Virus record (IMG/VR): IMGVR_UViG_2639762987_000013
Location: 1-38,273 of that record
Strand: one strand, 5' to 3'
DNA from: a virus
Taxonomy: Duplodnaviria > Heunggongvirae > Uroviricota > Caudoviricetes
DNA length: 38,273 nucleotides
Positions 30,732-37,564 of this stretch are shown here, in pieces. Below the pieces are notes generated by a model. That model had not been told where the DNA came from and did not search any database. It saw nothing but the letters and a program-made list of their open reading frames with translations. The stretch's first letter is position 1. Each line of letters opens with the position of its first letter. Made by a program: the position numbers and the translations under genes.

Positions 30732-32138
30732 ATGGCTACTTGGCAAGGAACAAATGGCGGATTGTTGGCTGGTATCGGTGGTGTCAACTCAAACGCTCCG
30801 AGCGTAAATGACATCGGCAACACGCTTCAGCTTATCAGGCAGAACAATGATATTGAGCGTTCAGGCTCTAACAATGTTGGGCTGACAGCTTTGCAAGGTC
30901 TTTCTGGTATTGCGGGGGTGTTTCAGCAGGAAAAGCAGGCTCAGCGGCAGAAAGAATTTCAGCAGGCGTACGCTAATGCTTATGCGTCTGGTGATCGCGG
31001 TGCTTTGCGTAAGTTGGCTACTCAATATCCAGACCAGATTGAATCCGTTCGTAAAGGCATGGGATTCATTGATGAAGAGCAGCGTAATTCTATCGGCACC
31101 TTAGCGGCTGGCGCACGCCTTGCGTCATCGTCTCCAGAAGCAATGCAATCATGGCTGCAAAACAACGCCAAGGAACTGACTCGCGTCGGTGTTGACCCTA
31201 ACAGCGTTGCTCAGATGTATCAGCAGAATCCTTCAGGATTTGGTGAGTTTGTTGATCACCTTGGAATGGCTGCTCTTGGTCCGATTGATTACTTCAATGT
31301 TCAGGACAAGATGGCTGGTCGTGAGATTGACCGAGGCGGGCTGGCAGAGACAATCCGCAGCAATCAGGCTGGTGAAGCACTTCAGGCGAGAGGGCAAAAC
31401 CTTTCCTATCAGTCAGCAATGACTGGGCACAATATCGCAGCACAACGCTTGGCTCTGGATCAGCAAGAGTTCGGGTTTAAGATGCAGCAAGCGCAGGAAA
31501 AGGCTCAGCAGTTGATTAGCGAAGCACCTAAGCTGTCAGTAAACATGGAAAAAGGCATCGAGACGGCTGTAAACAATGCCACAGCATCATCAAACTCAGC
31601 CAATTCCATGAGTGCGCTTGCTCAACAGTTCAGAGCAGAAAAACCAACGACCGGCTTGTTCGGTAACGCACAGAACATGTTCGCAAAACTTACCGGAAGC
31701 GATACGACATTGCGTGATTTGCGCATTCGCCAAAATGCCCTTGTTAACAGTCAGGTTCTTAAATTCCTACCTCCCGGCCCAGCAACGGATAAAGACGTTG
31801 AGATCGTTCGACAGGGTGCGCCAACTGACATGGATAACCCTGAGACGGTCGCAAGATGGCTTGATGCAATGGCAAACCTTGAGCGACGAAACGCGCAGTT
31901 TAATGAGTTTAAAGCTGAGTGGATGAGCGCGAATGGCAACCCTGGACAATCGCGTAATGGCGGTCAGATATTGGGGTTGGATGTTAAAAAAGGTGAATCA
32001 TTGGGGAGTGCCGTTAAGCGGTATATGTCAATGAATACTGACGCAGCGCCAGCACAAGATTCGACACCTTCAGGAGAACCACGGAATCAGGTTGGATCAT
32101 ATACCTCAAAATCAGGCATTCAATTTACGGTGGAATGA
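30732..32138 (+). CDS. Ejection protein, gp20-type, 468 aa
   Basis: Size and position in P22-like order. Confidence 0.7.
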
Positions 32139-33982
32139 TGAAAGTAACTGCAAACGGTAAGACATTTACCTTTCCTGATGGTACGAGCACCGAAGATATT
32201 GGCACCGCCATTGATGAGTATTTTGCTGGTCAGGCTGTTCAGCAACAAACAGTTAATCAGGCCAATAATGCACCAACACGGGAAGAACCATCATTGATGC
32301 AACAAGCTGGCGATTGGCTCACTGGTGGTCAAAGTGCAGGGCAAATTGCGGAACAGGCTGGTCGTGGTCTGGTAAACATACCATTTGACGTATTGCAGGG
32401 CGGCGCAAGTCTGATTAATGCAATCAGCCAGGGGCTTGGTGGCCCCAAGGTTTTGGACGATGTCTATCGTCCAGTCGATCGACCAACAGACCCTTATGCG
32501 CAAGCTGGAGAAACAATTGGCGGGTATTTAGTTCCAGGAGTTGGAACGGCAGGAAGCATGGCTATTGGATCACTGGCAGAGGCCGCAAATCAGAAAGGCG
32601 ATTTCGCACAAAATGCAGCTAAAAATGCCGGAGTTAACCTTGCCGCTCAGGGGGTTCTTTCCGCAGCAGCAAAGGGAATAGGGCGTGGAATAACGGCTAT
32701 AAAAGGTGATATTGCGCCAGAAGTGGCGAAGAAAATTGCCACATCAGAATCGATGGGCGTGACACCAATGACATCTGATGTTATCCCGCCGAAAAATGCT
32801 TTCACTCGCGGCCTAACTCAGGATGCCGAGGGGGCTTTGCTCGGGACAGGCTCAAAGCGAGCGGAGCAATATGCAACGCGTAGTAAGCTGGTAAGTAATT
32901 ATTTTGACCGTTTTGGTGAGTACAACCCTGATGATGTGGTGAAATCTCTTACCACCACGTTAAGGGGGCGGAAGGATGCCGCTGGCGCTGTTATCAATGA
33001 CGTCACCAATAAAATGGGTAATGCCGCAGTTGATACCACAAATACCATGAATGCTCTGAATACAGCGATCGCAAGACAGGAACGGCTTGGGACGTCTGCC
33101 AATCAAAGCCTGCTTACATCCTTGCGTAACCTACGTGAAGAATTAGCAAACCCTGCAACTGATTTGGATGTTACGTTTGATCTCTTGCGTCAGCACAGAA
33201 CAGCATTTAGATCTAATGTTCAGGGAGATGCTATGGTCTTCCCAAACCAGGCAAAAGCAGCTACCAATATGGTAGAGAATGCAATGTCAAAAGATCTTCG
33301 TAACGCAGTTGCAAAAAACCTCGGTGCATCAGACGCAGCAAAATACCTTAAAGCAAATTCCGATTATGCAAACGTTTATAATAAGGTGCTTAATAAAAAC
33401 ATTGCTAACAAGCTCAACAAGGCAAGCAGTGAAGCCAGTCCTGAACTTATAAATACCGTTGTATTAAGCAGAAAACCATCTGACGTGAAACGAATCTGGA
33501 GCGCATTGGATAATAAAGGGAAAGATGCTATGCGTGCAGCTTATGTCAGCAAAATAGCGGAAAAGGCCGGTGACTCTCCAGCCAAGTTCATCACTGAAGT
33601 TAATAAGCTGAAATCTCAGTCAGGCGGTGAAATTTACAACACTATTTTTTCTGGAAAGCACATGAAAGAGCTTGATTCTCTTCATGAAGTTCTACAGCAA
33701 ACAGCAAGGTCAGACACCGCAAATGTAGTAACTCAGACGGGGCAATCGCAAGCCAACAGGATAAGGACGATTGGCGCAACTGCGACTCTTGGCGTATCAA
33801 TGGGGCTTGAGGCTGGTTTCGGTGCAATGATGCGCTTGTATGAGTCAAAAGCAGCAAGGAATGCTCTCTTACGTTTGGCAAACACCAAAGCAGGAACACC
33901 AGCCTATGAAAGAGCGCTAAATAATGCTGCAAATGCGATACGCCCTATACTTTCAAGCCAAATTACAGCAGAACAGCAATAA
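32135..33982 (+). CDS. Ejection protein, gp16-type, 615 aa
   Basis: Size and position in P22-like order; ATGA overlap with gp20. Confidence 0.7.
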
Positions 33983-33995
33983 AAATAAGATATAA

Positions 33996-34481
33996 CTATC
34001 TGATATTACTGCTACTGTTGCATGTTACCGTGTTTCCAAATCCTGAATTGCAGTTTGTATATGTGTCAACGCGTGTTGGGTAAGGTTGAGTTATAACAGG
34101 CTGGCGCGCTTTTTGCTCGATCGCTTGCATTGTGTTTACAGCCTGATAATTCAATAAAGCCTGCTGGAATGCTTGGCTTTGTGCTATTTGTTGTGCTTGT
34201 TCTTGGCTTTGTAATTGAACATAAAGATTCTGAAGTTCAAGTCTTGCCTGTGTGTCACTTATCTTGCCTTCATCGACACCTTGCCCGAGCATCTTCGCAG
34301 CAAGGACATACAGCTTAGGTGTTGGTGCTGATGCCATGCGAGAGTCGTTCTTCAAGCTGGCATCAAGGCAATTAGCCATATCGCTAAGCTTTGGATAGCG
34401 TTGCTCGCAACTTGCCTGATAGTCGCTTACTTTTGCGCACCCAGCCAGCAGAAGCGGGATAATTAACAGTGATTTTTTCAT
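33996..34481 (-). CDS. Predicted lipoprotein (signal peptide MKKSLLIIPLLLAGC, lipobox LAGC; Gln-rich helical region; Cys-containing C-terminus), 161 aa
   Basis: ATG 34481 with AAGGAG RBS; lipobox read from sequence; antisense to the late operon, in the sieA/immI slot. Confidence 0.6.
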   Translation of the reverse strand: MKKSLLIIPLLLAGCAKVSDYQASCEQRYPKLSDMANCLDASLKNDSRMASAPTPKLYVLAAKMLGQGVDEGKISDTQARLELQNLYVQLQSQEQAQQIAQSQAFQQALLNYQAVNTMQAIEQKARQPVITQPYPTRVDTYTNCNSGFGNTVTCNSSSNIR

Positions 34482-34515
34482 ATAATTAACTCTCCTTAGT
34501 TTTGCGCAGGATACC

Positions 34516-34881
34516 ATGAAAAAAGTTAACATTGGAAACGTACCAAAGATGCTCGTTCCGCTCTTTGAGAGCGGTACAATTGTGTTTTGTAGAGACTTTC
34601 CAGAATGGCAACGCCTGCATCAAAAACTTGGCGTTGACGTGCATGACTCGGACGCCAACGGAGCGTCTCATACAATGAGTAGCGAGAATGGTGTTTTGCA
34701 TGTGATAGGCGTGTTCAATGGCAAACTATCTACTATTGCCCATGAGTGCGCTCACATGGCATTCGATATCTGCTCAAGGGTAGGTGTTGATGTTGAACCA
34801 GGAAGAGCCAACGAGACTTACTGCTACTTAATGAGCAGGCTTGTTGAGTTCTGCGAGCGACATATCAAAAAGCCGGAGTGA
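34516..34881 (+). CDS. Small HExxH-motif protein (IAHECAHMAFDI), possible minimal zinc metallopeptidase, 121 aa
   Basis: HEXXH motif read from translation; stop lies in a bidirectional terminator hairpin (34871-34888). Confidence 0.5.
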   Translation: MKKVNIGNVPKMLVPLFESGTIVFCRDFPEWQRLHQKLGVDVHDSDANGASHTMSSENGVLHVIGVFNGKLSTIAHECAHMAFDICSRVGVDVEPGRANETYCYLMSRLVEFCERHIKKPE

Positions 34882-34888
34882 CCCGGCT
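34871..34888. terminator. Bidirectional intrinsic terminator between convergent genes (AGCCGG-loop-CCGGCT with T-tracts on both strands)
   Basis: Read from sequence. Confidence 0.55.
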
Positions 34889-34894
34889 TGATTA

Positions 34895-35074
34895 TTACTT
34901 TTTGCTGTCTGGAGTTCGCTTATCCAATACCCAGCCATGACCTGGCTTTGTTGTTGGTGGAAGCCTTTCGTTGTCCTTGACGGTTGCAAAATTGTCTTTC
35001 TTACCGCCGCGTGGGCCAACTTCTTGGTATATTCCGCCGTTTTTTCCTGTGTTTTCACCTGGTTTTTTCGCCAT
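34895..35074 (-). CDS. YjzC-like small protein, 59 aa (MAKKPGENTGKNGGIYQEVGPRGG...LPPTTKPGHGW...)
   Basis: Pattern KPGE...G.Y.E.G..G.......V..GE.LPPTT...W resembles YjzC-like family (from memory); GAGG RBS before ATG 35074; candidate sigma70 promoter (TTGACT/17 bp/AATATT) at 35111-35139 on minus strand. Confidence 0.45.
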   Translation of the reverse strand: MAKKPGENTGKNGGIYQEVGPRGGKKDNFATVKDNERLPPTTKPGHGWVLDKRTPDSKK

Positions 35075-35147
35075 GATATACCTCAACATACACCCGTTAT
35101 TGGGCGATTAAATATTGATCTCATTTTATAAGTAGTCAATATGGCCC

Positions 35148-35172
35148 AGGTAAATGCAAAAATTAACCCACC
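35148..35172. terminator. Hairpin terminator downstream of mnt (AACCCACC-TTCA-GGTGGGTT + T-tract)
   Basis: Read from sequence. Confidence 0.5.
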
Positions 35173-35173
35173 T

Positions 35174-35425
35174 TCAGGTGGGTTTTTTGTACAAATCCTT
35201 CAGCGTATCAAACACCATCTTCTTAACAAGCTCTGACTGCTCATCAGCGATGCGTTCCGCATCGTCTCGATAGCCTGAAATTTTGGATGGCTTTGATACA
35301 GCATCAGTCACTATCTGAACTAATTCTGAATTAAGAGAGCGGCCATTGGATTTGGCTCGCTGTTTTAGTTTTTCCTTTAATTCGTAAGGTAGCCGCAGAT
35401 TAAATTGCGGGTCATCTCTTCCCAT
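35174..35425 (-). CDS. mnt: Mnt repressor (Arc/MetJ ribbon-helix-helix), 83 aa
   Basis: MGRDDPQFNLRLPYELKEKLK.RA..NGRS.NSEL.QIV.DA.SKPS...GYR.DAERIADEQSELVKKMVFDTLKDLYKK matches recalled P22 Mnt. Confidence 0.85.
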   Translation of the reverse strand: MGRDDPQFNLRLPYELKEKLKQRAKSNGRSLNSELVQIVTDAVSKPSKISGYRDDAERIADEQSELVKKMVFDTLKDLYKKPT

Positions 35426-35489
35426 TCTTGATGCCTCGCTTTTGTGAGTGGATCGGCATCTTATTATCTGCTGATTGCATCCTCAATAA

Positions 35490-35502
35490 GACCACGGTGG
35501 TC
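35490..35502. promoter_or_regulatory. O_mnt-like operator (GACCACGGTGGTC) within Pant-equivalent region upstream of tailspike
   Basis: Near-palindrome with the same CACGGTG core as the P22 mnt operator (recalled as TCCACGGTGGA). Confidence 0.5.
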
Positions 35503-35572
35503 GTATTTTTTTGATTAATAATGCATCACTGCGGCAATGCTGCGGCGATTCCTTGTATCTGGAGCAAATTAA

Positions 35573-37564
35573 ATGACAGACATTACAGCCAATGTTGTAG
35601 TGAGCATGCCTTCGCAACTCTTCACTATGGCGCGTTCTTTTAAAGCCGTAGCTAATGGCAAAATTTATATCGGTAAAATTGACACTGACCCGGTAAATCC
35701 TGATAACCAGATTCAGGTCTATGTTGAGAACGAAGATGGTTCTCACGTTCCTGTTGCACAGCCAATCGTCATCAATGCCGCTGGGTATCCAGTATATAAC
35801 GGACAGATTGCCAAATTCGTAACTGTGCAAGGCCATTCTATGGCTGTTTATGATGCATGTGGTGCGCAGCAGTTCTATTTTCCAAATGTGCTGAAGTATG
35901 ACCCGGATCAGTTAAGGCAGGAGTTAGCAAGTTCAGGTGATGATCTTGGAGATGCATTAATAGCAGTAAAACAACCATTCACCTTGTCAATAAGAAGGAC
36001 GCAGCATCAAAAAAATGCCGAGCACATTAGTGTTAGTGATTTTGGTGCAAAAGGAGACGGCATAACAGATGATACTGTAGCAATTCAAAATGCTATTAAT
36101 GCAGTACCAGAAGGGGCTATACTTGGATTTTATGGTGGTGAATTTGTTTTTGATAAGGTTGAATTGCTTAAGCCAATAACATTGGTTGGTGATGCAACGT
36201 TAATTCACAACGGATTTAGAATAAAATCTAGCAGAATACGATCACTTTTATCTGGTGTTCAGAAATGCAAGGATTACTCCGAGTCTTCAAGAGCATTTTA
36301 TTGCTATGCAAATGAAGACCAAAGAGATTATGACGATATTCAGATTTTGTTTAATAGATTTGAAGGTTTCTTTTACTCTACGGCATTTGTTGCAAAAAAC
36401 TATTATTTGGAGAATGACCCTAATTCAAGAACTGTCAAAAATACAAAAGTAATAGGATGTACATCAGTTGCTCCTGATTCTGTAAATGCCGGTCATTTTC
36501 AACATATAGGCGTTACAAATGCTGAAACATCACATAACTCAACTTATGGCGGACAAAATGCAACATCATACAACTTCATTAACCAGAATGGATTTGTAAG
36601 GATTATAGGAAATTATGACCATAACAATAGCTATGGTTCATGTGAGCTTGAGAACTCAATGGTGAGTAACTCAGTCATATCATGTAATACGTTTTCGTCA
36701 TATTTATGGGTGGATGATACAAGTAATGTTACTATTTCTGGAAATACAGTTTCATCAAGGATCAAAGTAACATCGCAAACTGACGATGTTCATAATATAA
36801 CCATATCAGCAAATACCACAAAACGGATTACTATAGAGCAATTTGGAGAATCTCCGACAGGTCTGGTATATGGTGCATTAATTTCCTGTAACACTATTAC
36901 TGGCGACAGTGATGGAAGTTCAGACATTTTATGTACGTCACTTGTTACAGGTGAAATTTCATCAAATTATTGTCATGGATCAGAAAAAAATATATCAATT
37001 GTCCGCCTGGATTCTTCTGATATAACTGTTAGAAACAATAAAGGAAACAAAGGATTACTTACAATAAGTAACGATGGTGGGAGGATAATTGAATATGGCA
37101 ATGATTCTATGGTTCTGTCTGGAAGCATAGATAGCAGACATATACATAATTTATTACAACCAGACACATCGTATTTAGATCTACCGGGGAAATATCTGCA
37201 CGGAACTAAATATACTGGCAGTATCCCCCCCGGTTCCACAGGAACTGTATCACTTCAAATACCATCAGGGGCAAGCCTTGTTTTCAGGGGTGTTTCTATA
37301 TGGGTTCTAATTAGAGATGTTAGCAATAACAATATATCGTCATTCAGAATTGATGGTTCATATAGAGTTGTTGGTGGAAGTGTTGGTCTTAGTTTTGCTG
37401 ATGCTTATTCGAAACTCGGGGTGGATGCAAACTCTATAACAGTGTCAAACAATAACAGCACTTCTGACAATATCAGCATAGCAATTAAAAACACAGATTC
37501 ATCAAAAACCCTTCAGGTTACTGTTATGCCGGAGGTTTCAAGCAGGTTAGGTATTGAGGAATAG
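35573..37564 (+). CDS. Tailspike: P22-type N-terminal head-binding domain fused to a distinct right-handed beta-helix (pectate-lyase-like) receptor-binding domain, 663 aa
   Basis: First ~110 aa ([11 protein letters not shown]...[33 protein letters not shown]......INAAG..VYNGQ......VQGHSMA.YDA.G.Q.....NVLKYDPDQ) match P22 gp9; remainder starts with beta-helix motif [22 protein letters not shown] and is Asn/Ser/Thr-rich. Confidence 0.9.

What the first reader, a model, noticed from the sequence alone, without database searches (positions are those of the whole stretch)
34895..35172. YjzC-like small protein as an independently transcribed moron
The 59-aa ORF shows the pattern KPGE..G.Y.E.G..G....V..GE.LPPTT..G..W that I associate with YjzC-like proteins of unknown function. 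It has a GAGG RBS, a candidate promoter (TTGACT, 17-bp spacer, AATATT) about 30 nt upstream and a bidirectional terminator downstream, i.e. a complete promoter-gene-terminator cassette inside a prophage.
Basis: partly seen in the sequence, partly recalled or inferred. Interest (0 to 1): 0.45.

Follow-up and report, generated by a model that had tools for sequence, protein, structure and literature searches.

The report
P22 orf59a small-protein moron cassette
This is the long-annotated but uncharacterised gene orf59a of phage P22, a real 59-residue protein gene with its own conserved promoter and terminators inside an E. coli P22-like prophage. Its relatives elsewhere sit next to DNA-damage switches and anti-phage systems, which hints at a role in phage-host conflict.

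Summary
A 59-aa ORF lies on the minus strand (35074..34895). It has a GAGG ribosome-binding site, a TTGACT-17-AATATT promoter (35139..35111), a bidirectional terminator downstream (34870-34889) and a second one upstream (35165-35184). It is not new: it is 98% identical to P22 orf59a and HK620 'HkcD', and the HK620 record already annotates both terminators. YjzC membership is remote but real: Pfam gives 19.4 bits against a cut-off of 25, while profile-profile comparison gives 99% probability. Coding is certain (synonymous sites saturated, pN 0.12-0.22). The promoter is supported by a phylogenetic footprint: both hexamers are invariant in five lineages whose flanks are at random-level identity. 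No transcript data were found. The mobile unit is a ~650-bp two-gene module, orf59a plus the convergent HExxH protein 'hkcC-like' (34516-34881), which is unannotated in P22 reference records. In 42 of 80 species, close chromosomal homologues sit beside protease genes: CapH/CapP-like XRE+M78 DNA-damage switches, IetA/IetS, or hkcC-like genes. This suggests a small binding protein of the stress and phage-conflict gene pool. The function remains inferred.

The parts
35165..35184 (.). Upstream bidirectional intrinsic terminator, directly after the mnt stop codon. HK620 labels it 'tMNT'. It insulates the cassette from mnt transcription.
   Evidence: 8-bp stem, 5 GC pairs, scored on both strands.: -14.4 kcal/mol on the minus strand (tail AAUUUUUG) and -16.8 kcal/mol on the plus strand. 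HK620 annotation.
35111..35139 (-). Sigma-70-type promoter TTGACT-17 nt-AATATT of the 59-aa gene.
   Evidence: 9/12 match; both hexamers invariant and the spacer length fixed in window, Proteus (L004), Xenorhabdus (L007) and two IMG/VR prophages (L156, L157), while spacer and flanks are randomised; the hexamers never vary among about 25 close variants.
35092..35105 (-). Short palindrome or 5'-terminal hairpin GCCCAATAACGGGT at the predicted transcript start. It could be an mRNA 5' stem-loop or an operator. Support is weak.
   Evidence: same position in diverged loci (GCTCAATAACGAGC in enterics, CTGCAATGTTGCAG in Pasteurellaceae). The fold is not unusual (-7.3 kcal/mol, z -0.86), and several close variants break a pair.
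35081..35084 (-). Ribosome-binding site GAGG, 6 nt before the ATG.
   Evidence: GGAG or GAGG is at the same place in diverged loci.
34895..35074 (-). 59-aa basic protein gene (pI 9.9, 6.4 kDa, no Cys). Homologue of P22 orf59a, PHROG 3202, remote YjzC (PF14168) relative.
34870..34889 (.). Downstream bidirectional terminator shared with the convergent hkcC-like gene. HK620 labels it 'tORF59A'; P22 records label it 't mnt'.
   Evidence: The hairpin is conserved with compensatory changes in L004, L043, L156 and L157.
34516..34881 (+). Convergent partner gene, hkcC-like, 121 aa. It has invariant HE[CA]xH plus N-E-T motifs and lies on the same strand as late genes 16 and 9. It is always linked to the 59-aa gene in P22-like phages.
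   Evidence: (phrog_1365). AF2 model pLDDT 83.5. Metallopeptidase assignment inconclusive.

Best explanation
The feature is the E. coli-prophage copy of phage P22 gene orf59a. It is a genuine gene for a 59-residue, basic, cysteine-free, all-beta protein of the wider YjzC family.

It forms an autonomous transcription unit: upstream terminator, sigma-70 promoter, short leader, GAGG, ORF, bidirectional terminator. The unit lies antisense to the late operon, in the accessory hot spot between ejection gene 16 and tailspike gene 9.

The likely mode of expression is inferred, not shown. Host RNA polymerase transcribes the gene from its own promoter while the prophage is repressed. Late-operon read-through in the opposite direction during lytic growth opposes that transcription.

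The gene does not travel alone. A ~650-bp block carries it together with the convergent hkcC-like gene, a small protein with an invariant HExxH...NE signature. This block is at least 97.6% identical across the Salmonella and E. coli P22-like phage records that cover it, while both flanks vary.

Function is inferred from guilt by association. The protein is a small non-enzymatic binding module belonging to the DNA-damage and phage-conflict gene pool. In bacterial chromosomes its close homologues are the cargo of XRE+M78 (CapH/CapP-like) or LexA-like damage-responsive switches, or the third gene of IetA/IetS operons. In the prophage it most plausibly acts as a lysogen-expressed accessory factor affecting superinfection or stress. 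The hkcC-like protein is a possible late-expressed antagonist or processor.
For: Identity: 98.3% aa to P22 orf59a and HK620 HkcD; phrog_3202 E=7e-31.

Coding: pS 0.78-1.0 against pN 0.12-0.22 in eight comparisons. 110 protein clusters were found in the 5.8-billion-sequence library, and 148 representatives at 50% identity.

Family: hhalign 99% probability, E 9.5e-18, to PF14168-labelled proteins.

Promoter and terminators.

Independence from mnt: 13 P22-like loci lack mnt but keep the cassette. HK620 keeps the promoter, both terminators and an orf59a copy carrying a nonsense codon, with only a remnant of mnt.

Dispensability: HK620 has a nonsense codon at position 18. L158 and L159 have a 1-nt deletion.

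Two-gene module: the hkcC-like gene is next to the ORF in essentially all of about 81 P22-like loci, with variable outer flanks. 52 phage records cover at least 80% of the 654-bp block; those listed in full are 97.6-98.3% identical. An intact, unannotated copy is present in P22.

Chromosomal context, 80 species: separate M78+XRE in 24, fused HTH-M78 in 7, IetA+IetS in 7, hkcC-like in 4. Pfam confirms Peptidase_M78, HTH and DUF3892. PADLOC gives capP 1e-58, IetS E=0 and IetA 8e-127. Palindromic operators lie in the intergenic regions. Further neighbours are TIR, LexA-like S24, an E1 plus multiubiquitin pair, and SLATT.

CapH/CapP are published DNA-damage-responsive regulators of immune operons, including DUF3892 operons (bioRxiv 10.1101/2022.04.27.489752).

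Moron-like reverse orientation recurs in three Firmicute phages.
Against: No transcript, 5'-end or protein data were found for this gene in any lysogen. The P22 RNA-seq supplements that are held do not list it. BTP1 and Kapi1 lack the module.

The promoter match by itself is within chance expectation.

P22 reference records call the downstream hairpin 't mnt', which implies an mnt-orf59a co-transcript. The upstream hairpin has an interrupted U-tract on that strand.

The window itself contains no XRE/M78 or Iet genes next to the ORF, so the functional inference is transferred from homologues that are 56-81% identical.

There is no PADLOC or NCBIfam hit for the 59-aa protein, and no structural analogue.

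SieA exclusion does not need orf59a (PMC10883804).
Confidence: 0.6

Rival explanations
1. orf59a is simply the distal gene of an mnt-orf59a operon transcribed from Pmnt. The hairpin after mnt is leaky and the real terminator is the one after orf59a (the 't mnt' of the P22 records). The 'promoter' is incidental.
For: P22-pbi, BK000583 and NC_002371 label the hairpin downstream of orf59a as the mnt terminator. mnt and the ORF are on the same strand, 99 nt apart. The upstream hairpin's tail on that strand is AAUUUUUG, an interrupted U-run. The promoter match alone is not above chance.
Against: The hexamers and the 17-nt spacing are invariant across five lineages with randomised flanks. 13 loci, including HK620, keep the cassette without mnt. 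The Xenorhabdus copy (L007) has no mnt upstream but the same promoter. HK620's annotators placed tMNT before the ORF. Read-through and an own promoter are not mutually exclusive.
Confidence: 0.2
2. orf59a and the hkcC-like gene form an antagonistic pair with opposite timing. Orf59a is made in the lysogen and blocks something needed by incoming or induced phages, as a defence or growth brake. The HExxH protein, made with the late operon, cleaves or neutralises Orf59a so that the resident phage can grow. This would be a prophage defence with cognate self-immunity.
For: The pair is obligately linked, with convergent orientation and a shared terminator, in about 80 loci. The hkcC-like gene is co-oriented with late genes 16 and 9. 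HE[CA]xH and N-E-T are invariant, and the predicted b-b-a-b-b-a-a topology is compatible with a minimal zincin. Homologues of the small protein repeatedly sit beside proteases of three unrelated classes (M78, S8 IetS, AAA-M41).
Against: The peptidase fold is not confirmed. No interaction data exist. With CapH/CapP, the protease's known substrate is CapH, not the cargo, so the protease link may be incidental. HK620 keeps hkcC although its orf59a is broken.
Confidence: 0.15
3. The phage copy is an anti-defence decoy. It mimics a host YjzC-like component of damage-induced immune operons, and so interferes with host CapP- or Iet-type systems to protect the prophage or its progeny.
For: Host homologues lie inside CapH/CapP-regulated and IetAS loci. 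There is very high cross-phylum conservation, 56-81% identity across alpha-, beta- and gamma-proteobacteria, which suggests a conserved target. Phage carriage recurs in Gram-negative and Gram-positive temperate phages.
Against: No known anti-defence family was matched. The orientation and the promoter suggest lysogenic rather than early-lytic expression. The copy is dispensable in HK620.
Confidence: 0.08
4. The functional product is the RNA. The transcript would act as an antisense regulator of late-operon read-through between genes 16 and 9, like STnc6030 of BTP1 or sar of P22, and the ORF would be secondary.
For: The transcript would be fully antisense to late read-through. BTP1 has a highly expressed exclusion asRNA at the equivalent 16/tailspike junction (PMC7067206).
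Against: There is strong purifying selection on the protein with saturated synonymous sites. The protein family extends far beyond phages. There is no Rfam match. An added antisense effect is not excluded.
Confidence: 0.04

Closest known systems
Phage P22 orf59a (AAM81399.1; BK000583/NC_002371) and HK620 'HkcD' with tMNT / tORF59A
   Same: Same gene: 98.3% aa identity. Same position, between mnt and the gene-16 side of the immI region. Same flanking hairpins, already annotated as terminators in HK620.
   Different: The host is E. coli. The neighbours differ: a lipoprotein-like gene instead of sieA or hkcB, mnt without arc/ant, and a different tailspike. The HK620 copy is a pseudogene (TAA at codon 18). 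No function has ever been assigned.
Pfam PF14168, YjzC-like protein (Bacillus subtilis YjzC)
   Same: Same length class (55-65 aa) and shared core KPG..G.YQEVGPRGG....V..G..LPPT..G..W. Profile-profile probability 99%.
   Different: Below the Pfam gathering score. It forms a distinct proteobacterial and phage subfamily with a conserved RTPDSKR tail. YjzC itself is uncharacterised, so membership gives no function.
Classical phage morons (promoter-gene-terminator inserts such as HK97 gp15; concept of Juhala/Hendrix, recalled from memory)
   Same: Own promoter and terminator, opposite orientation to the surrounding late operon, variable presence, dispensable.
   Different: No GC anomaly. It moves as a two-gene convergent block. 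Lysogenic expression and any host benefit are untested.
CapH/CapP-regulated operons (Lau et al. 2022, bioRxiv 10.1101/2022.04.27.489752), including 'DUF3892 systems' and ubiquitin-like systems
   Same: Homologues of the 59-aa protein are the sole or last gene transcribed divergently from XRE+M78 pairs. The 292-aa M78 type matches PADLOC capP at 1e-58. In 9 species the gene follows a DUF3892 gene.
   Different: The window has no capH/capP. The regulator upstream here is Mnt, a ribbon-helix-helix protein. The YjzC-like gene is not named in that paper. A search for 'YjzC' across the paper library found nothing relevant.
IetA/IetS (AAA ATPase + S8 protease defence/stability system)
   Same: In 7 species a YjzC-like gene lies next to IetS. 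In six it follows IetS on the same strand, at 12-39 nt in four and 209-226 nt in two.
   Different: No Iet genes are in the window, and a third Iet gene is not part of the published two-gene definition (recalled from memory).
BTP1 STnc6030 (antisense exclusion RNA at the gene-16/tailspike junction)
   Same: Same genomic slot, and a lysogen-expressed transcript antisense to late genes (PMC7067206).
   Different: STnc6030 is non-coding and unrelated in sequence. Here the product is a conserved protein.

Membership tests
Pfam PF14168 YjzC-like | Score at or above the curated gathering threshold (25 bits) | tested here: not met
   19.4 bits, E=0.0013. 23 of 67 clade members hit the family at E<0.01, with a best E-value of 1.8e-4.
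Pfam PF14168 YjzC-like | Homology to bona fide members by profile-profile comparison and through intermediates | tested here: met
   hhalign 99.0% probability, E 9.5e-18, 51 aligned columns. P0082 is 68% identical to the query and carries PF14168.
Pfam PF14168 YjzC-like | Small single-domain protein with the core KPG..G.Y.E.G..G....V..G..LPPT..G..W | tested here: met
   Alignments A1 and A2. Invariant residues are G6, G14, G20, G23, P39 and W48.
P22 orf59a / PHROG 3202 | Sequence identity and conserved position in the immI / gene 16-gene 9 region of P22-like phages | tested here: met
   98.3% aa identity; phrog_3202 E=7e-31; synteny.
Phage moron | Own promoter | tested here: met
   Consensus match plus phylogenetic footprint: 12/12 hexamer positions invariant, 1/17 spacer positions, 0/30 upstream positions. 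This evidence is computational only.
Phage moron | Own factor-independent terminator | tested here: met
   Hairpin at 34870-34889, -12.6 kcal/mol, U-tail. It is conserved with compensatory changes.
Phage moron | Inserted between genes that are adjacent in related phages; variable presence | tested here: met
   Flanks vary among about 81 loci. The module is absent from epsilon34 (only the first 41 bp match). BTP1's STnc6030 lies over the end of the DNA-injection gene and the start of the tailspike gene, so those two genes appear adjacent there (PMC7067206).
Phage moron | Base composition different from the surrounding genome | tested here: not met
   GC 46.7% for the ORF against 47.5% for the window.
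Phage moron | Transcribed from the repressed prophage | not testable with these tools
   No expression data for this gene were found in the held papers or supplements.
CapH/CapP-regulated cargo | Divergently transcribed XRE repressor + M78 peptidase immediately upstream | tested here: not met
   In the window the upstream gene is mnt (Arc plus Repressor_Mnt domains), and no XRE or M78 gene is present. The feature is met in homologous loci: 24 separate pairs plus 7 fused genes out of 80.
Zincin metallopeptidase (for the partner hkcC-like protein) | HExxH plus a third ligand, and a zincin fold | tested here: inconclusive

The most novel reading that the evidence does not exclude
The YjzC/Orf59a family is an unrecognised, widely mobile small effector or regulator of bacterial immunity. 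In this reading it is induced by DNA damage through CapH/CapP-type or LexA-type switches, or co-expressed with IetAS. P22-like prophages would carry it as a lysogen-expressed defence, paired with a late-expressed HExxH antagonist (hkcC-like) that gives the resident phage self-immunity.
Probability: 0.2. Interest if true: 0.7.

Novelty: already known. Interest (0 to 1): 0.4.

Why it matters
As submitted, the finding re-discovers an ORF that has been in the P22 annotation for over twenty years, so it is not new. Three points could still be useful.

1. There is now comparative evidence that this orphan P22 gene is a real, selected protein gene with its own promoter.

2. Its constant partner, an HExxH protein, is intact but unannotated in the P22 reference records.

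3. Its close homologues (56-81% identical across alpha-, beta- and gamma-proteobacteria) are repeatedly the cargo of DNA-damage-responsive XRE/M78 (CapH/CapP-like) switches, or are appended to IetAS. I found no paper that mentions this association.

The third point gives a concrete, cheap hypothesis for a family of unknown function, in one of the best genetic systems available (P22 and Salmonella).

Tried and rejected
- NCBIfam and PADLOC scans of the 59-aa protein gave nothing.
- A PDB sequence-profile search gave nothing.
- A perfect 7-bp inverted repeat, ATATTGA-N17-TCAATAT, overlaps the window's promoter. It is not conserved in diverged loci and was dropped.
- The palindrome at the transcript start as a regulon operator: matches elsewhere in the window are within chance (6 against 2.5 expected; 5 of 100 shuffles reach 6). 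As an RNA hairpin it is not unusually stable, and close variants break pairs. It is kept only as a weak feature.
- Rfam gave no family.
- Compositional anomaly: none.
- Literature search for expression data. 'orf59a' appears in one relevant paper, and only as part of a plasmid insert. The supplements held for the P22 RNA-seq paper do not list it. BTP1 and Kapi1 transcriptome papers concern phages without this module. Hofer 1995 and Vander Byl 2000 are not held.
- 'YjzC' in the paper library returned only irrelevant hits.
- Orf59a as a cofactor of SieA exclusion is rejected: sieA alone with 85 bp of upstream DNA is sufficient (PMC10883804).

Full report
**What is there.**
The 59-aa ORF is on the minus strand, with its ATG at 35074 and its stop codon ending at 34895. 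GAGG sits 6 nt before the ATG. The consensus scan finds exactly one promoter-like site in the surrounding 1.8 kb: TTGACT, a 17-nt spacer, AATATT, at 35139..35111 on the ORF's strand. A hairpin at 34870-34889 scores as a terminator on both strands. On the ORF's strand it folds at -12.6 kcal/mol and is followed by UUUUU. A second bidirectional hairpin at 35165-35184 lies between the stop codon of the upstream gene and the promoter. Only the strand and the upstream terminator were left unstated.

**Surroundings.**
- The upstream gene on the same strand (35174-35425) is Mnt, with Pfam Arc and Repressor_Mnt domains.
- Further on is a tailspike gene (35573-37564, plus strand).
- On the other side lie a convergent 121-aa ORF (34516-34881, plus strand), a lipoprotein-like ORF on the minus strand (33996-34481/34532), and ejection gene 16 (32135-33982, plus strand).
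- The stretch is 100% identical to the chromosome of E. coli IR53017, where RefSeq calls the ORF a 59-aa hypothetical protein.
- This is the immI / 16-9 accessory region of a P22-like prophage that lacks arc and ant.

**It is a known gene.**
The protein is 98.3% identical to P22 orf59a. It also matches the HK620 feature 'may encode hypothetical protein HkcD'. The HK620 record annotates the upstream hairpin as tMNT and the downstream one as a bidirectional terminator, tORF59A. P22 records instead label the downstream hairpin 't mnt'. The only relevant paper in the library that mentions orf59a names it as part of a plasmid insert. That paper shows that sieA alone is sufficient for exclusion (PMC10883804). 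No function has been assigned.

**Is it a real protein gene?**
Yes. Against homologues with 64-81% aa identity, synonymous sites are saturated (pS 0.78-1.0) while pN is 0.12-0.22. The family has 110 clusters in the large protein library and 148 representatives at 50% identity.

**Family.**
The Pfam YjzC hit is below threshold (19.4 bits against 25). However, the orf59a clade (alignment A1) matches PF14168-labelled proteins (A2) at 99% probability, E 9.5e-18. Membership of the wider YjzC family is therefore supported, as a distinct subfamily with a conserved RTPDSKR tail.

The AF2 model (pLDDT 85) is a three-stranded beta unit with no significant PDB neighbour. The protein is basic (pI 9.9) and has no cysteines. 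The module also occurs as tandem repeats and in membrane-anchored multi-repeat proteins. That fits a binding module rather than an enzyme.

**Is the promoter real?**
One 9/12 match is not above chance. Comparison settles the question as far as computation can. Five lineages were compared: the window, Proteus L004, Xenorhabdus L007, and the IMG/VR prophages L156 and L157.
- Both hexamers are identical in all five, and the spacer is always 17 nt.
- Only 1 of 17 spacer positions is invariant.
- None of the 30 upstream positions is invariant; pairwise identity there is 0.26.
- Among about 25 close variants the hexamers never change.
- The terminator hairpin is also kept, with compensatory changes.

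A short palindrome at the predicted transcript start (35105..35092) is conserved in position. It is weak as a structure.

**Independence from mnt and dispensability.**
Thirteen P22-like loci, including HK620, carry the cassette without mnt. HK620's copy has a TAA at codon 18. Two IMG/VR copies have a 1-nt deletion in an A-run. The other 78 of 80 are intact. The cassette is present in 116 of 5426 complete E. coli genomes. Its GC content is not anomalous.

**The unit that moves has two genes.**
In essentially every P22-like locus, the ORF is paired with the convergent hkcC-like gene across the shared terminator. What lies beyond the pair varies: gene 16 directly, or sieA, hkcB or a lipoprotein-like gene on one side; mnt with or without arc/ant, or the tailspike gene directly, on the other.

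The 654-bp block 34492-35145 is covered at 80% or more in 52 phage records. Those listed in full are 97.6-98.3% identical. Between the window, P22 and HK620 the identity ends abruptly just upstream of the hkcC ribosome-binding site.

P22 has an intact hkcC-like ORF that its reference records do not annotate. The annotated PsieA lies inside it.

The hkcC-like protein has invariant HE[CA]xH and N-E-T motifs and a b-b-a-b-b-a-a predicted topology. Neither profile comparison with M78 peptidases nor structure searches confirm a peptidase fold. It is on the same strand as late genes 16 and 9, so it would be read with the late operon. orf59a, mnt and the lipoprotein-like gene are antisense to that operon.

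**Context of homologues elsewhere.**
A scan of one genome per species found 105 relatives, and I examined 80 loci. Proteobacterial copies are 56-81% identical to the prophage protein. Profiles built from neighbour clusters gave the following:

| Neighbour type | Loci (of 80) |
|---|---|
| Separate M78 peptidase, mostly with an XRE repressor | 24 |
| Fused HTH-M78 gene | 7 |
| IetA + IetS | 7 |
| hkcC-like | 4 |

- Pfam confirms Peptidase_M78, HTH and DUF3892.
- PADLOC assigns the 292-aa M78 type to capP (1e-58), and the ATPase/protease pair to IetA (8e-127) and IetS (E=0).
- In five alphaproteobacteria, the YjzC-like gene is the only gene transcribed divergently from the XRE-M78 pair.
- In nine beta- and gamma-proteobacteria, it follows a DUF3892 gene by 11-32 nt.
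- Conserved palindromes (ATGTTTG..CAAACAT; TGACGAATTCGTCA) lie in the intergenic regions next to sigma-70-like promoters.
- In four Iet loci it starts 12-39 nt after IetS.
- Other neighbours include a divergent LexA-like S24 repressor, TIR, AAA-M41, SLATT_4, and an E1 plus multiubiquitin pair.

CapH/CapP are published DNA-damage-activated regulators of immune operons, DUF3892 operons among them (bioRxiv 10.1101/2022.04.27.489752). The YjzC-like gene is not named there. A search for 'YjzC' across the paper library returned nothing relevant.

In three Firmicute phages the YjzC-like ORF lies in reverse orientation to the surrounding lytic genes. This is moron-like placement again.

**Interpretation.**
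- Shown: the identity with orf59a; the coding constraint; the remote YjzC homology; the conserved promoter and terminator elements; the two-gene module; the genomic associations.
- Inferred: transcription from the repressed prophage; opposite timing of orf59a and hkcC-like expression; and a role as a small binding protein in DNA-damage or phage-conflict responses.

The window has no capH/capP or Iet genes, so the functional inference is transferred from homologues and is no more than a lead. Co-transcription with mnt may occur in addition to transcription from the ORF's own promoter.

**Verdict.**
The gene itself is already known. Interest is moderate. It rests on the unreported association with DNA-damage switches and defence loci, and on the constant, partly unannotated HExxH partner.

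Noticed in passing
window 34516-34881 (+); L001 (P22-pbi) 2694-3059/3071 (-): The hkcC-like 121-aa ORF has an invariant HE[CA]xH...N-E-T signature. It is intact in P22 but not annotated in AF527608, BK000583 or NC_002371, where 'PsieA' is drawn inside its 5' end. It is co-oriented with late genes 16 and 9.
   Followed up: yes
window 33996-34481 (or start at 34532), minus strand: A lipoprotein-like ORF (MKKSLLIIPLLLAGC lipobox, phrog_6067 E=4e-109, no Pfam hit) occupies the slot where P22 has sieA and HK620 has hkcB. It is a candidate alternative superinfection-exclusion or conversion gene.
   Followed up: partly
window 35488-35504, between mnt and the tailspike gene: The palindrome GACCACCGTGGTC resembles the P22 Mnt operator AGGTCCACCGTGGACCT but has changed half-sites. 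mnt is present although arc and ant are absent, so what Mnt represses here is unclear.
   Followed up: partly
L002 (HK620) 2501-2680: The HK620 copy of orf59a ('HkcD') has GAA changed to TAA at codon 18. IMG/VR loci L158 and L159 have a 1-nt deletion in the A-run GGAAAAAACGG. These are occasional pseudogenes in otherwise 98%-identical modules.
   Followed up: yes
window 35573-37564 (+): The tailspike gene has much lower GC (37.6%) than the window (47.5%) and than the genes to its left, which suggests a recently exchanged receptor-binding module.
   Followed up: no
L061, L062, L076, L081 (and L025, L034, L054): IetA-IetS loci in Planctomycetota, Acidimicrobiales and proteobacteria carry a YjzC-like gene. 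In six it follows IetS on the same strand, at 12-39 nt in four and 209-226 nt in two. This would be a possible third component of a system described as having two genes.
   Followed up: partly
L018, L027, L033, L038, L039, L042, L047, L051, L055, about 300-520 nt upstream of the YjzC-like gene: In capP-capH | DUF3892-YjzC units the intergenic region has a conserved 14-bp palindrome, TGACGAATTCGTCA, and further ATGACG half-sites overlapping TTGACT...TATAGT promoters. There is also a GC hairpin with a T-run between two promoter-like sites. These are likely CapH operators, and possibly an attenuator or small RNA.
   Followed up: partly
P0165, P0199, P0201, P0129, P0192; L075 and L079: The YjzC-like module occurs as 2-4 tandem repeats, in proteins with N-terminal transmembrane segments, and fused after an unrelated N-terminal region that resembles DUF2442 (by eye, not scanned). 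This suggests an autonomous binding domain.
   Followed up: no
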